Positions 28,104 through 33,098 of a stretch of 64,000 bases of DNA are shown piece by piece (the stretch's first letter is position 1; each line of letters begins with the position of its first letter). Under the pieces are notes generated by a model that saw only the letters and a program-made list of their open reading frames with translations, was not told where the DNA came from and made no database searches. The position numbers were made by a program, and so were the translations under genes. Source of the stretch: Escherichia coli (GTDB lineage Bacteria; Pseudomonadota; Gammaproteobacteria; Enterobacterales; Enterobacteriaceae); NCBI RefSeq assembly GCF_024502345.1, contig NZ_JALDNN010000001.1; one strand, written 5' to 3'.

Positions 28104-29215
28104 TGTGCAGCTCCTGGTTTGGCCTCACCAATCACCACTTCATCGCCCGCTTCCAGCCCTTTGACAATCTCAACATCGGTATCGTTACGTGCGCCAATCG
28201 TCACTTCACGCTCGCGTGTTTCACCATTACGCAACAATTTGACTTTATAACGATTATCGCCAACCGGATCGCCTAACGCCGACAGAGGGATCGTCAGCAC
28301 ATTTTTCACATCGGTGAGCTGAATATGCACTTGCGCAGTCATATCCAGCCGCAGCAAACCATTGGGGTTGGGGACTTCAAAACGGGCGTAATAGAAAATA
28401 GCGTCGTTAACCTTTTCCGGCGTCGGTAGTACATCCTTGATTTGCCCCTCGTAGCGCGTCAGTGGATCGCCAAGTACCGTAAACCAGGCTTTTTGCCCCG
28501 GCTTCAGGTGGATTACATCCGCTTCAGAAACCTGCGCTTTTACCAGCATGGTGCTCATATCTGCCAGCGTCAGAATGTTCGGTGCTTGTTGTGCGGCAAT
28601 CACCGTCTGGCCTTGCAGAGTGGTGATTTGCGTGACTTCCCCGGCCATCGGGGCAACGATGCGAGTGTAATCGAGATTGGTTTTAGCCGTATCGAGAGAA
28701 GCCTGATTGCGCTTGATTTGCGCGTCAATGGTGCCAATTTGCGCCTGTTTCACAGCCATCTCCGTCGCGGCGGTGTCGAGATCCTGCTGTGAAACCGCCT
28801 GCGTTTGTGCCAGACGTTGCTGACGGGAATACGTCACCCGCGCCAGTTTCAGCTCCGCTTCCGCCTGCTGCCGCTGCGCGCGTAGCTCCATCAGCGTTGC
28901 TTCGACCTCCTTGATCTGGTTTTCAGCCTGTTCAGGATCAATGACCCCTAAAAGCTGGTCTTTTTTTACTTTATCGCCAATCGCCACCGACAGCGTTTTC
29001 AACTGACCGCTGACCTGCGCGCCCACATCAACCTTACGCAGCGCGTCCAGCTTTCCGGTCGCCAGCACGCTTTGCTGTAAATCACCGGGGCGCACAATCA
29101 GTGTCTGGTAAGTCGGCACGGGTGCGTTAAGAATTCTCCATAACGTAATCAGTCCGGCGATGACTATCACCAGCGCAATAACGTAACGCTTCTTCACGGT
29201 TTTCCGCTTTTTCAT
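28100..29215 (-). CDS. macA: Macrolide export periplasmic adaptor MacA
   Basis: ORF 28100..29242 trimmed to [26 protein letters not shown]...; HlyD-like coiled coil; 4-bp overlap with macB. Confidence 0.93.
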
Positions 29216-29329
29216 AAATATTCTGAATACTCCATATGCCAATCCGGGTCATTAACTTCAACGAAATATCAACAAAACCCTAAAATTTACGTTAGTAATC
29301 ACACTATTGATGTTTGGTTAAGATACGCA

Positions 29330-30322
29330 ATGGTGAAATCGACGTCATGTATAACCATTGATTTCATGAATATGTCGCAGCTAACTGAACGGACCTTTAC
29401 GCCATCTGAATCTCTCAGCAGCCTGTCACTTTTTCTTAGTCTGGCACGTGGACAGTGTCGGCCGGGTAAATTCTGGCATCGCCGTAGTTTTCGCCAGAAA
29501 TTTTTGCTGCGCTCGTTGATTATGCCGCGTTTAAGCGTTGAGTGGATGAACGAACTTTCCCACTGGCCTAATCTCAATGTATTGTTAACGCGCCAGCCGC
29601 GACTGCCTGTACGTCTGCATCGCCCTTACCTTGCGGCGAATCTTAGCCGTAAGCAATTGCTGGAGGCGTTACGTTACCATTATGCGTTACTCCGCGGGTG
29701 TATGTCGGCGGAAGAATTCAGCTTATATTTGAATACCCCCGGGCTGCAACTGGCGAAGCTGGAAGGCAAAAACGGCGAGCAGTTCACGCTTGAGCTGACC
29801 ATGATGATCTCAATGGATAAAGAAGGTGATAGCACAATCCTGTTCCGCAACAGCGAAGATATTCCTCTGGCAGAAATCACGTTTACCCTGTGCGAATATC
29901 AGGGGAAAAGAACGATGTTTATTGGTGGACTGCAAGGCGCAAAATGGGAAATTCCACATCAGGAAATCCAGAATGCGACGAAAGCCTGCCACGGGCTATT
30001 TCCCAAACGCCTCGTGATGGAAGCGGCCTGTCTGTTTGCCCAACGTTTGCAGGTAGAGCAGATTATTGCCGTCAGCAATGAAACGCATATTTACCGCAGC
30101 CTGCGTTATCGCGATAAAGAAGGCAAGATCCATGCCGATTACAACGCTTTCTGGGAATCGGTTGGCGGCGTATGTGATGCTGAACGCCATTACCGCCTTC
30201 CAGCACAGATAGCACGAAAAGAGATTGCCGAAATCGCCAGTAAAAAACGGGCTGAATACCGTCGGCGCTATGAGATGCTCGACGCTATTCAGCCACAAAT
30301 GGCCACGATGTTTCGCGGTTAA
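29330..30322 (+). CDS. ybjX: VirK/DUF535-family protein YbjX
   Basis: 330 aa ORF at the K-12 ybjX position; exact start not verified. Confidence 0.8.
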   Translation: MVKSTSCITIDFMNMSQLTERTFTPSESLSSLSLFLSLARGQCRPGKFWHRRSFRQKFLLRSLIMPRLSVEWMNELSHWPNLNVLLTRQPRLPVRLHRPYLAANLSRKQLLEALRYHYALLRGCMSAEEFSLYLNTPGLQLAKLEGKNGEQFTLELTMMISMDKEGDSTILFRNSEDIPLAEITFTLCEYQGKRTMFIGGLQGAKWEIPHQEIQNATKACHGLFPKRLVMEAACLFAQRLQVEQIIAVSNETHIYRSLRYRDKEGKIHADYNAFWESVGGVCDAERHYRLPAQIARKEIAEIASKKRAEYRRRYEMLDAIQPQMATMFRG

Positions 30323-31977
30323 TCCGCGCGACCGCGCGCCAGCCACAGCACGCGTGAGAACATTTTTTTCAGCAGCGTCGGTACGGAGTCCACACCACGA
30401 CGTCCGGCCTCCATTGCCACTTCAATGGCAAGATCGGGTTTGGAAGAGCGATGGATCGCTTTCGAGATAATTTTGCGCAGATTCATCGGTACATTTTCCG
30501 GGATTTGCGCCACGCGGTGGAACACATCGGAAAATCCCTGGCGATACATAAAATGTTCCATATCCAGCGCCGGTAACGCCGTTAAATGTTCTCGTTCGGC
30601 TTCCCGATCATTATTCAACAGGCTGCGTACCGTAGCGGCATATTTCTTCCCTGCTTCATCGCCATCGACCAGTACATGCCATTCAATCCCCATTCGCCGG
30701 GCAAATTTAACCAGTGGCTTTAGCCCGGACTGGGCAAACTCAATGACCTTGATCCCTTCGGCATCAAAATGATGTCCGCACTGACGCGCCAGTTCATTGA
30801 TAACCCAGGTTTCCGTTTCCCCTTCCACCAGCAACCAGCAGCGAGCAAACAGCGATGACGGACGATTAAAACGAATGTGAAAAGAGATGCGGCGGCTGTC
30901 TTCGGTGCTCAAGCCACTTGGCCCCAGACGCCAGGCGGCAACGCGCGAGGACTCACGTACCAGGCGGCAAACATGTTCCACTGGAGTTAACGAAAGCAGC
31001 TCGCCAGAGTTGGTGGTAGCAATACGTTGTAAAGGCAAAAGATTCAACAGATGCCAGGCAACTGAAAGCATAATGGGGTGTAAACGCGTTTCTGGATCTT
31101 CGATCAGCAACAATGGACGGGCGTCTTTATCCAGTCGCAATGTGCCTTTTGCCTGCAATAAAGTAGCAAACAGGCCGAGCAAAATAACCCGATACGAGCG
31201 CCCTCCAGGTCGGTCAATCATCCGGTTGATGATGTCCAGATAGCGCCAGCTTCGTTGCTCATTGCTGGCCCGCCGCCGCATTAAACGATATCGCGCCTGT
31301 CCAGCCCCCTGCTCAGAGAAATAATGCTCAAGCAACTGCACCATTGCGGAAAGTCCCTGACGAATCTGTCCATCAGAGAGATTTTGCGGATGTGAGGACA
31401 ACTCACGGGCGAGGAAATCGAGCTGGCGCGCGGTGACTTCCACATTGGGGACATTTGGCACCGTGCCGTTACGAATACGGCGCATAAAACGGGCATCACG
31501 CAAGCGCAGCACCGGCATTAAACGCACCAGATGGCGTGCCTGATCGTTAATATCCTCAACATCAATCGGATGTCCGTCTTTATCGAGAAAACTGCGCAGT
31601 GTCATCACGCTGCCGTCTTCCGCACTCTCCCCTTCCAGACGATAAAAAATACGGTGATAGCCATCGGTGCATGGCGTCCAGCACGCTTCCAGCGGCCGAT
31701 AACGGCGAACCCGATGTCGGCCTGGCAGCGATTCGCGGAAGGTCAAAATAATATGCAGATGATGTTCCCGACCGTTGATATCTCCCGGCGGGAACCAGAA
31801 ATCGTCGCGCTCAAAATGGTAGAGATCTGATTCTGGCGATAGCAGCAAGGTTAAGGCGTCCAGCAAGCTGGATTTACCCCACGCGTTCTCCCCAATCAGG
31901 ACGTTGTTTTGTTCCAGCATCAACGACAAACGGTTGATACCGCGAAAACCCACAATTTCAACGCGCTCAAGAATCAT
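30319..31977 (-). CDS. ybjD: OLD-family ATP-dependent nuclease-like protein (ABC-type ATPase plus Toprim)
   Basis: 552 aa; N-terminal Walker A (GENAWGKSSLLDAL); C-terminal Toprim-like acidic motifs (CWLLVEGETE, HVLVDGDEAGKKY). Confidence 0.88.
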   Translation of the reverse strand: MILERVEIVGFRGINRLSLMLEQNNVLIGENAWGKSSLLDALTLLLSPESDLYHFERDDFWFPPGDINGREHHLHIILTFRESLPGRHRVRRYRPLEACWTPCTDGYHRIFYRLEGESAEDGSVMTLRSFLDKDGHPIDVEDINDQARHLVRLMPVLRLRDARFMRRIRNGTVPNVPNVEVTARQLDFLARELSSHPQNLSDGQIRQGLSAMVQLLEHYFSEQGAGQARYRLMRRRASNEQRSWRYLDIINRMIDRPGGRSYRVILLGLFATLLQAKGTLRLDKDARPLLLIEDPETRLHPIMLSVAWHLLNLLPLQRIATTNSGELLSLTPVEHVCRLVRESSRVAAWRLGPSGLSTEDSRRISFHIRFNRPSSLFARCWLLVEGETETWVINELARQCGHHFDAEGIKVIEFAQSGLKPLVKFARRMGIEWHVLVDGDEAGKKYAATVRSLLNNDREAEREHLTALPALDMEHFMYRQGFSDVFHRVAQIPENVPMNLRKIISKAIHRSSKPDLAIEVAMEAGRRGVDSVPTLLKKMFSRVLWLARGRAD

Positions 31978-32402
31978 ATCCCCTCCAGAAATATGTGACT
32001 TATCCTTTACGCTGGCAGTATAACGGGAAAGGCCTTGCTAATACGTGATGACATCACATTTAAGCATGGCAAATGTCTGAAAAATGAGCGAATAATCGCG
32101 TTATACTCCCTCTTGCTGATAAGTCTGCAAAAACAACAAAATCAAATAATTAGCATGATAAATTATTTTTTATTACGCCTAAAGGATTAAATCTTTTGCT
32201 TGCACTACACTGTCAATCAGACAAATGACTATATGGGGCAACCCGCTGTTGCCCTAAATCAAATTTACTGGATTTATTTATCTGGTGAATGACTCGCCTT
32301 CGTTTTTAAAATAGCCGCGCATTATTTCCGTCGTCACTTTTTTACGACGACCCTATAAAACGACCATATTTTTCACAGGGTCAATTTTTAATTGAGGTGG
32401 AT

Positions 32403-33098
32403 ATGTTCAGAAAATTAGCAGCTGAATGTTTTGGTACTTTCTGGCTTGTTTTTGGTGGCTGTGGTAGTGCTGTACTGGCCGCAGGCTTCCCGGAATTAGG
32501 CATTGGTTTTGCCGGCGTGGCGTTGGCGTTCGGTCTGACCGTTCTGACGATGGCCTTTGCTGTTGGTCATATTTCTGGTGGTCATTTTAACCCGGCGGTC
32601 ACTATTGGTTTATGGGCTGGCGGACGTTTTCCGGCAAAAGAAGTCGTTGGCTACGTAATTGCCCAGGTTGTCGGCGGTATTGTTGCAGCGGCGCTGCTGT
32701 ATTTAATTGCCAGTGGTAAAACGGGTTTTGACGCGGCAGCCAGCGGTTTTGCTTCTAACGGTTATGGCGAGCATTCACCAGGCGGTTATTCCATGCTTTC
32801 CGCGCTGGTAGTTGAACTGGTATTGAGTGCAGGTTTCCTGTTGGTGATCCACGGCGCAACCGACAAATTCGCGCCGGCAGGTTTTGCGCCGATCGCTATT
32901 GGTCTGGCCTTAACCCTGATTCACTTAATTAGTATTCCGGTGACTAACACTTCTGTTAACCCGGCGCGCAGCACCGCGGTTGCTATCTTCCAGGGCGGCT
33001 GGGCATTAGAACAACTGTGGTTCTTCTGGGTGGTGCCAATTGTCGGCGGCATTATCGGTGGTCTGATTTACCGGACCCTGCTGGAAAAGCATGATTAA
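32403..33098 (+). CDS. aqpZ: Aquaporin Z
   Basis: ORF 32397..33098 (GTG-extended) trimmed to [25 protein letters not shown]...; two NPA motifs (HFNPAVT, NPARS). Confidence 0.96.

What the first reader, a model, noticed from the sequence alone, without database searches (positions are those of the whole stretch)
30316..30325. Convergent ybjX and ybjD overlap at their stop codons on a TTAA palindrome
ybjX (+) stops with TAA at 30320-30322 and ybjD (-) stops with TAA read from 30321-30319, so the two convergent genes share the palindrome ttaa with no intergenic terminator. Transcription of each must run into the other's coding region, suggesting antisense interference or a shared downstream terminator inside the partner gene.
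Basis: seen in the sequence. Interest (0 to 1): 0.15.

Follow-up and report, generated by a model that had tools for sequence, protein, structure and literature searches.

The report
Ordinary four-base stop-codon overlap, ybjX/ybjD
Two E. coli genes on opposite strands, ybjX and ybjD, end on the shared four bases TTAA; this is the smallest and commonest way for converging bacterial genes to overlap, it is already annotated, and the resulting overlap of their transcripts is already catalogued, so it is ordinary.

Summary
ybjX (+) stops at TAA 30320-30322 and ybjD (-) stops at TAA read from 30321-30319, so the genes share TTAA (30319-30322). RefSeq annotates the same overlap.

It is not unusual. 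Four bases is the only possible short convergent overlap, and only CTAA, CTAG, TTAA and TTAG allow it. Two of the seven convergent junctions in this window have it. E. coli has 58 convergent overlaps in the literature.

I add two points:
- **Age.** Among 80 Enterobacteriaceae species, 61 of the 62 with a ybjX-family gene beside ybjD keep the exact 4-base overlap. All four tetramers occur.
- **Termination inside the partner.** ybjD is followed by a strong hairpin plus U6 (30296-30242) embedded in ybjX codons 305-323. This is a prediction and is specific to Escherichia. On the ybjX strand, published bicyclomycin data place a strong Rho-dependent termination region about 880 nt into ybjD.

ExcludonFinder (2025) already lists ybjD-ybjX as a convergent transcript overlap. 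Antisense interference is untested, and the two terminators are separate rather than shared.

Verdict: real, known and low interest.

The parts
29366..30322 (+). ybjX coding sequence (VirK/YbjX, DUF535). The longest ORF starts at 29330; PGAP starts it at 29366 (Met13).
   Evidence: In Shigella, the transcription start site lies 18 bp downstream of the old ATG, and the gene is activated by PhoP (PMC12562796).
30319..31977 (-). ybjD coding sequence (class 1 OLD-family ATPase/TOPRIM protein, 552 aa).
   Evidence: PMC13261556 describes ybjD as convergent with ybjX.
30319..30322 (.). TTAA: the 4-nt overlap of the two coding sequences. ybjX stop is 30320-30322; ybjD stop is the complement of 30319-30321.
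   Evidence: The overlap is conserved as TTAA, CTAA, TTAG or CTAG in 61 of the 62 species that have a DUF535 gene beside ybjD.
30314..30328 (.). Small 5-bp inverted repeat CGCGG-TTAAT-CCGCG centred on the junction. It is made of the last codons of both genes. It is specific to E. coli and has no U-tract on either side.
   Evidence: It is absent in Citrobacter, Enterobacter and other junction sequences.
30249..30296 (-). Hairpin of the predicted ybjD intrinsic terminator. It has 9+5+2 bp plus a closing G-C and about -26.6 kcal/mol. It starts 23 nt after the ybjD stop and lies inside ybjX codons R307-Q323.
   Evidence: (z=-3.2). Under synonymous recoding, 0 of 3000 sequences were as stable. It is the top-ranked hairpin plus U-run on the antisense strands of 22 coding sequences. 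The stretch matches at >=99% identity in 5359 of 5424 E. coli genomes, though some alignments stop short of the junction. It is not conserved as a structure outside Escherichia and some Citrobacter.
30242..30247 (-). U6 tract of the predicted ybjD terminator. It is the antisense of the ybjX Lys305-Lys306 codons AAA AAA.
   Evidence: The run is conserved family-wide because the KK motif is conserved.
30323..31204 (+). Inferred ybjX 3' untranslated extension, antisense to the 3' half of ybjD. It ends at the Rho termination region reported at MG1655 917246 (- strand), which maps to about window 31204.
   Evidence: PMC7815308 Supplementary file 2: -BCM 299 reads upstream and 18 downstream; +BCM 568 and 545; Rho score 15.9; p=7e-53; 800-nt windows. 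Mapping. ExcludonFinder Table 1. Continuity with ybjX is inferred, not shown.
30523..30872 (+). C-rich, G-poor stretch of the ybjX-sense RNA (C/G 1.5-1.8). It is a plausible Rho loading (rut) region. A second such stretch lies at 30323-30422 (C/G 1.5).
   Evidence: The ybjD-sense RNA downstream of its stop has C/G of about 1.0.
30363..30369 (+). T7 run 41 nt after the ybjX stop. It has no adjacent strong hairpin, so it is not a convincing intrinsic terminator.
   Evidence: best upstream hairpin -11 kcal/mol, poorly formed.

Best explanation
The TTAA is the minimal stop-on-stop overlap of two unrelated genes whose C-termini are each held in place by selection on the protein.

The arrangement is old, dating at least to the common ancestor of most Enterobacteriaceae. 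It drifts only among the four tetramers that keep both stops. Those changes are synonymous in the partner's last codon.

Because there is no spacer, each transcript ends inside the other gene, by two different and separate mechanisms:
1. ybjD RNA most likely ends about 55-77 nt past its stop, at an intrinsic terminator (long hairpin plus U6). It is written into ybjX codons 305-323 by codon and residue choice in Escherichia. This step is predicted, not mapped.
2. ybjX RNA has no usable intrinsic terminator. It continues untranslated and C-rich, antisense to ybjD, until Rho stops it several hundred nt downstream, up to about 880 nt. Rho dependence of the antisense RNA is shown in published data. 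Its origin at the ybjX promoter is inferred.

The pair is therefore a convergent transcript overlap. Any regulatory consequence is unproven.
For: - Sequence and annotation.
- Geometry: only four tetramers are possible (PMC2174442).
- Conservation: 61 of 62 abutting gene pairs keep the 4-nt overlap. Tetramer counts are TTAA 34, CTAA 21, TTAG 5, CTAG 3, including two E. coli reference loci.
- Protein-level constraint: YbjD always ends in ...Asp. The YbjX tail after RRRY is 16-17 aa even in Kluyvera distal copies that do not abut ybjD. Losing the ybjX stop would add 149 codons.
- ybjD terminator.
- Rho termination on the ybjX strand: PMC7815308 Supplementary file 2, with a C-rich RNA.
- Transcript overlap: ExcludonFinder Table 1.
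- Precedent: Lillo & Krakauer report that 23 of 116 E. coli genes in convergent overlaps have a Rho-independent terminator inside the partner.
Against: - No Term-seq 3' end was called at the predicted ybjD terminator, or anywhere at MG1655 9177xx-9182xx, in Adams et al.. This may reflect low ybjD expression.
- The hairpin shows no covariation across the family: 66.3% of positions paired against 66.9% in shuffles. RNAalifold finds no consensus structure. Its U-run and 3' arm are partly by-products of the conserved KKRAEYRRR motif.
- The Rho region has only about 800-nt resolution.
- The antisense RNA could start at an unrecognised promoter inside ybjD rather than at PybjX.
Confidence: 0.75

Rival explanations
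1. Functional excludon. PhoP-induced ybjX transcription at low Mg2+ or under antimicrobial-peptide stress produces a long 3' extension antisense to ybjD. This lowers expression of the OLD-family nuclease through polymerase collision or RNase III cleavage of the duplex. The overlap is kept because it enforces this coupling.
For: - ybjD-ybjX is called as a convergent excludon in at least half of 58 RNA-seq sets.
- Abundant Rho-limited RNA lies antisense to the 3' half of ybjD.
- ybjX is directly activated by PhoP (PMC12562796).
- The junction is kept in 61 of 62 species.
Against: - No reciprocal expression data were found.
- ExcludonFinder calls overlap only from coverage.
- Eighteen of 80 species have lost ybjX and keep ybjD, so ybjD does not depend on the partner.
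- Conservation is explained by protein constraint.
- Rho actively limits the antisense RNA, as it does for pervasive non-functional antisense transcription.
Confidence: 0.12
2. The overlap itself is under selection, for compaction or to exclude an intergenic element, rather than being a frozen consequence of two constrained C-termini.
For: The exact 4-nt geometry is kept in 61 of 62 species, although YbjX identity falls to 45-50% and two deep DUF535 clades both abut ybjD in the same way.
Against: - Leaving the state requires a stop loss, a stop gain in a length-conserved tail, or a precise 4-nt duplication. A ybjX stop loss would add 149 codons.
- Tail length is the same in copies that do not overlap ybjD.
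- Buttiauxella has a 12-nt spacer.
- A 4-nt saving is negligible.
Confidence: 0.08
3. The RNA antisense to ybjD seen in the bicyclomycin experiment comes from an independent promoter inside ybjD, not from ybjX read-through. ybjX itself ends close to its stop, for example at the T7 run at 30363-30369.
For: - The Rho region is 880 nt from the ybjX stop, which is far for a 3' UTR terminator.
- Adams et al. class 51.5% of Rho regions as antisense, many from spurious intragenic promoters.
- A T7 run lies 41 nt after the stop.
Against: - The consensus scan finds no promoter-like site on the + strand in 28900-32500, although this scan is crude.
- The T7 run has no adjacent stable hairpin.
- ExcludonFinder's criterion requires coverage to continue from a gene past its boundary.
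- The C-rich rut-like stretch at 30523-30872 fits Rho loading on a read-through RNA, with release 200-600 nt later.
Confidence: 0.2
4. Annotation artefact: one of the two stop positions is wrong, so there is no real overlap.
For: None. The ybjX start is uncertain (29330 or 29366), but that does not affect the 3' end.
Against: - The Pfam DUF535 match reaches residue 325 of 330.
- YbjD aligns end to end at 80-99% identity in 80 species.
- Both stops sit at homologous positions across genera.
Confidence: 0.02

Closest known systems
Four-nucleotide convergent (tail-to-tail) gene overlaps on CTAA/TTAA/CTAG/TTAG (Lillo & Krakauer 2007, PMC2174442)
   Same: It is exactly this class. Two stops on opposite strands share their central TA, which is the modal convergent overlap length. 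The paper also notes that terminators must then lie in the partner's coding sequence. It found 23 of 116 such E. coli genes with a Rho-independent terminator there.
   Different: Nothing essential. This instance is documented here as unusually old: 61 of 62 Enterobacteriaceae species, with all four tetramers used.
Excludons: convergent or divergent genes with overlapping transcripts (concept from Listeria; ExcludonFinder, NAR 2025, PMC12288877)
   Same: ybjD-ybjX is listed in the MG1655 'excludome'. A long RNA antisense to ybjD exists.
   Different: The defining functional outcome, mutually exclusive expression through interference or RNase III, has not been shown for this pair. The listing rests on coverage alone.
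Bidirectional intrinsic terminators between convergent genes (Ju, Li & Liu 2019; recalled from memory, paper not held in the library)
   Same: A hairpin lies near the junction of convergent genes.
   Different: The hairpin here has a U-tract only on the ybjD-sense strand. On the ybjX-sense strand it is followed by ACAAAUGG. It lies inside a coding sequence, and the ybjX strand uses Rho.
ybjS/amiD junction in the same window (42707-42710, CTAA)
   Same: It has the same 4-nt convergent stop overlap and is also listed by ExcludonFinder as amiD-ybjS.
   Different: The genes are different. I did not study its terminators or conservation.

Membership tests
4-nt convergent stop/stop overlap | Two real protein-coding genes on opposite strands, 3' ends facing | tested here: met
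   Pfam DUF535 (E=4e-102) and DUF2813 plus OLD TOPRIM (E=2e-160); RefSeq annotation.
4-nt convergent stop/stop overlap | Tetramer is one of CTAA, CTAG, TTAA or TTAG, with both stops in frame | tested here: met
   TTAA at 30319-30322. Enumeration of the allowed tetramers.
4-nt convergent stop/stop overlap | Stop positions supported by orthologues and not a mis-call | tested here: met
   61 of the 62 species with an abutting DUF535 gene keep the same junction.
Excludon | Transcripts of the neighbouring opposite-strand genes overlap | tested here: met
   From the literature only: ExcludonFinder Table 1 and the Rho region antisense to ybjD.
Excludon | Expression of one gene represses the other (mutually exclusive expression) | not testable with these tools
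   No expression data for the pair under PhoP-inducing conditions were found.
Excludon | Dependence on RNase III or on transcriptional interference | not testable with these tools
   Needs rnc mutants or polymerase occupancy data.
Intrinsic (Rho-independent) terminator, for ybjD | Stable G+C-containing hairpin followed within 1-2 nt by a U-tract | tested here: met
   Hairpin at 30296-30249 (-26.6 kcal/mol), then G and U6 at 30247-30242. 0 of 3000 synonymous recodings were as stable.
Intrinsic (Rho-independent) terminator, for ybjD | Mapped RNA 3' end at the U-tract | tested here: not met
   No 3' end at MG1655 9177xx-9182xx in the Term-seq tables of PMC7815308. Other datasets could not be searched. 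Absence may reflect low expression.
Intrinsic (Rho-independent) terminator, for ybjD | Structure conserved or covarying in relatives | tested here: not met
   No excess pairing or covariation across 54 sequences. The hairpin is strong only in Escherichia and some Citrobacter.
Bidirectional intrinsic terminator | U-tract after the hairpin on both strands | tested here: not met
   On the + strand the hairpin is followed by ACAAATGG. No + strand terminator-like site is called at the junction.
Rho-dependent terminator, for the ybjX strand | Read-through when Rho is inhibited by bicyclomycin | tested here: met
   From the literature: Rho score 15.9, p=7e-53 at MG1655 917246 on the - strand.
Rho-dependent terminator, for the ybjX strand | Untranslated C-rich, G-poor RNA upstream (rut-like) | tested here: met
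   C/G is 1.5 at 30323-30422 and 1.5-1.8 across 30523-30872.

The most novel reading that the evidence does not exclude
The conserved head-on arrangement could be a working switch. PhoP-activated ybjX transcription, limited by Rho, would silence the class 1 OLD defence nuclease YbjD through an antisense 3' extension of about 0.9 kb. That would tie envelope and Mg2+ stress to the level of a phage-defence protein across Enterobacteriaceae.
Probability: 0.08. Interest if true: 0.45.

Novelty: already known. Interest (0 to 1): 0.12.

Why it matters
It matters little. The overlap class, this specific annotation and this pair's transcript overlap are all on record.

The modest additions are:
- A clean example of how a minimal convergent overlap stays frozen over long evolutionary time while drifting among the four allowed tetramers.
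- An example of how a terminator can be written into a partner's coding sequence by codon choice.
- A concrete, cheap hypothesis, PhoP-driven antisense control of an OLD-family nuclease, for anyone studying ybjD ('oldB').

Tried and rejected
- **Family-wide conserved RNA structure at the ybjD terminator: rejected.** There is no covariation, and pairing equals the shuffled controls.
- **Bidirectional terminator: rejected.** There is no U-tract on the + strand.
- **Intrinsic terminator for ybjX at the T7 run 30363-30369: rejected as unconvincing.** There is no adjacent stable stem.
- **Known RNA family at the locus: none.** Rfam finds nothing at E<=1 in 29000-32300.
- **Mis-annotated stops: rejected**.
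- **Experimental 3' ends.** The TERMITe and SMRT-Cappable-seq supplements hold no ybjD or ybjX entries. No Dar & Sorek supplements are held. Ju et al. 2019 is not held under the PMC id I tried. The Adams Term-seq tables have no 3' end in the junction region.
- **An error of mine, corrected.** My first count of junctions mis-scored 7 loci, because the best tblastn hit was a second, distal DUF535 paralogue. This was corrected by adjacency.
- **A notebook remark I withdraw.** An earlier notebook entry said the Kluyvera distal copies have their own hairpin plus T-run terminator. The hairpin there is followed by an A-run.
Full report
**1. The observation**

The window is E. coli. Positions 29200-32100 match 5424 of 5426 complete genomes, with the best hit at 99.7% to NZ_AP027877.1.

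The sequence reads ...cgc ggt TAA tcc..., with TTAA at 30319-30322.
- The + ORF 29330..30322 ends in TAA at 30320-30322.
- The - ORF 30319..31977 ends in TAA, read from 30321 to 30319.

The + ORF is DUF535/VirK (YbjX). The - ORF is DUF2813 plus OLD-type TOPRIM (YbjD). PGAP annotates the same 4-nt overlap in K-12 and in the closest genome.

The coding sequences overlap by four bases, and the two stop codons share the central two.

**2. Is it unusual?**

No.
- Enumeration shows that convergent overlaps of 1, 2, 3 or 5 nt cannot exist. A 4-nt overlap allows only CTAA, CTAG, TTAA and TTAG.
- Lillo & Krakauer 2007 list the same four tetramers. They report a modal overlap length of 4 bp and 58 convergent overlaps in E. 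coli (PMC2174442).
- The annotation of the closest genome gives seven convergent junctions in this window. Two of them are 4-nt overlaps. The second is ybjS/amiD at 42707-42710, a CTAA.

**3. How old is it?**

I scanned one genome per species with YbjD and obtained 80 Enterobacteriaceae loci. I scored junctions by adjacency, took L053, and inspected the remaining loci by hand.

| Junction state | Species loci |
|---|---|
| DUF535 gene abutting ybjD with the exact 4-nt overlap | 61 |
| 12-nt spacer (Buttiauxella) | 1 |
| No ybjX | 18 |

The 18 without ybjX include Klebsiella, Raoultella, Superficieibacter and some Enterobacter. In these, ybjD is followed co-directionally by macA. Locus L057 still holds about 50 nt of the ybjX 3' end, which shows the loss was by deletion.

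All four permitted tetramers occur. Counting the two E. coli reference loci, they are TTAA 34, CTAA 21, TTAG 5 and CTAG 3.

The changes between tetramers are transitions at tetramer positions 1 and 4. These are synonymous in the partner's last codon, and YbjD always ends in Asp.

YbjX itself diverges to 45-50% identity, while YbjD stays at 80-91%. DUF535 splits into two deep clades, and both clades abut ybjD in the same way.

The YbjX tail after the conserved RRRY is 16-17 residues long. This holds even in the Kluyvera distal paralogues, which do not touch ybjD. Losing the ybjX stop would add 149 codons; losing the ybjD stop would add 9.

I infer that both C-termini are fixed by selection on the proteins. 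The junction is then a frozen state that is hard to leave by mutation. No regulatory selection needs to be invoked.

**4. Where do the transcripts end?**

*ybjD strand.* The RNA downstream of the ybjD stop folds into a long hairpin.
- It spans window 30296-30249, with 9+5+2 bp plus a closing G-C, at about -26.6 kcal/mol.
- It is followed by G and then U6 at 30247-30242.
- It lies inside ybjX codons K305-Q323.

Evidence that it is more than chance:
- The fold of the 121-nt stretch containing it has z=-3.2 against dinucleotide shuffles.
- None of 3000 synonymous recodings of the same peptide is as stable (mean -14.2, sd 3.2). Only 1.1% are as stable when just the variable tail is recoded.
- It ranks first among all hairpin plus U-run sites on the antisense strands of 22 coding sequences (27.4 kb).
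- The stretch matches at >=99% identity in 5359 of 5424 E. coli genomes, although some alignments stop short of the junction.

Its limits:
- It is not a conserved structure across the family. On 54 aligned sequences, pairing is 66.3% against 66.9% in shuffles, with no excess covariation. RNAalifold finds no consensus.
- The U-run and the 3' arm are the antisense of the conserved KKRAEYRRR motif. Only Escherichia and some Citrobacter have a 5' arm that matches.
- Adams et al. called no Term-seq 3' end there.

It therefore remains a good prediction, not a mapped terminator.

*ybjX strand.* There is no convincing intrinsic terminator after the stop. The T7 run at 30363-30369 has no adjacent stable stem. 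The untranslated RNA is C-rich, with C/G 1.5 at 30323-30422 and 1.5-1.8 across 30523-30872.

Adams et al. 2021 (PMC7815308, Supplementary file 2) report a Rho termination region at MG1655 917246 on the - strand, classed as antisense to ybjD.

| Condition | Reads upstream | Reads downstream |
|---|---|---|
| Without bicyclomycin | 299 | 18 |
| With bicyclomycin | 568 | 545 |

The Rho score is 15.9 and p=7e-53, using 800-nt windows. In NC_000913.3, ybjD is 916473..918131 (+) and ybjX is 918128..919120 (-). The site is therefore about 880 nt past the ybjX stop, at about window 31204.

That the RNA comes from ybjX is an inference. Two things support it. ExcludonFinder lists ybjD-ybjX among 165 convergent transcript overlaps seen in at least half of 58 RNA-seq sets (PMC12288877). 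No promoter-like site is called on that strand, although that scan is crude.

**5.

- 'No intergenic terminator' and 'each transcript runs into the other gene' are correct.
- 'Shared terminator' is not. The two strands use different signals at different places, and the hairpin is unidirectional.
- 'Antisense interference' is possible but untested. ybjX is PhoP-activated (PMC12562796). ybjD encodes a class 1 OLD protein with anti-phage phenotypes on induced expression (PMC13261556). A PhoP-driven antisense effect on ybjD is therefore a concrete hypothesis. However, 18 of 80 species keep ybjD without ybjX, and Rho actively curtails the antisense RNA.

**6. Comparison with what is known, and novelty**

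This is a member of the known class of 4-nt convergent overlaps. It is already annotated, and its transcript overlap is already catalogued. It meets the transcript-overlap criterion of an excludon, but the functional criteria could not be tested. It is not a bidirectional terminator.

Rfam finds nothing at the locus. I rate the novelty as 'already known' and the interest as low (0.12).

**7. What led nowhere**

- The supplements of two Term-seq/long-read papers hold no entry for these genes. Two other papers were not available.
- My first junction count was wrong for seven loci that carry tandem paralogues. I corrected it.

Noticed in passing
window 42707-42710: A second 4-nt convergent stop overlap (CTAA) lies between ybjS (+, ends 42710) and amiD (-, starts 42707). 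The pair is also listed by ExcludonFinder as amiD-ybjS.
   Followed up: partly
L003-L082 (ybjX homologues); window 29366-30322: YbjX (DUF535) diverges much faster than its neighbour YbjD: 45-60% against 80-91% identity to E. coli. It splits into two deep clades, and both abut ybjD with the same 4-nt overlap.
   Followed up: partly
L068, L072, L073, L074, L081 (about 1.1-2.1 kb beyond the ybjD stop); L071: Kluyvera and a related genome carry two tandem DUF535 paralogues. The Enterobacter-type copy abuts ybjD and the Escherichia-type copy is distal. K. ascorbata has a single copy with an Escherichia-type body and a Kluyvera-proximal-type tail. This suggests unequal crossover in the conserved KKRAEYRRRY segment that preserves the junction.
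   Followed up: partly
L025, L029-L031, L035, L036, L042, L043, L045, L047, L049-L051, L057, L060, L062, L066, L078: ybjX is absent in Klebsiella, Raoultella, Superficieibacter and some Enterobacter. ybjD is then followed co-directionally by macA after 75-190 nt. L057 keeps about 50 nt of the ybjX 3' end right after the ybjD stop.
   Followed up: partly
window 29330-29366: The longest ybjX ORF starts at 29330 (330 aa), but PGAP starts at 29366 (Met13, 318 aa). A Shigella primer-extension study places the transcription start site 18 bp downstream of the older ATG, which supports the shorter protein.
   Followed up: partly
window about 44600-45900, 51000-54300 and 62250-63000 (approximate, from L085 coordinates): The closest RefSeq genome annotates a truncated pentapeptide-repeat pseudogene and a sulfatase plus PTS IIB/IIC block between artJ and rlmC. 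It also annotates nfsA with an internal stop. The window is not perfectly collinear with that genome: there is a 38-nt offset by ybjS. I did not check whether the nfsA stop is present in the window.
   Followed up: no
window 30249-30296, + strand: The same hairpin, at -26 kcal/mol, also forms in the translated ybjX mRNA just before its last seven codons. Whether it affects ybjX translation or 3' stability is unknown.
   Followed up: no
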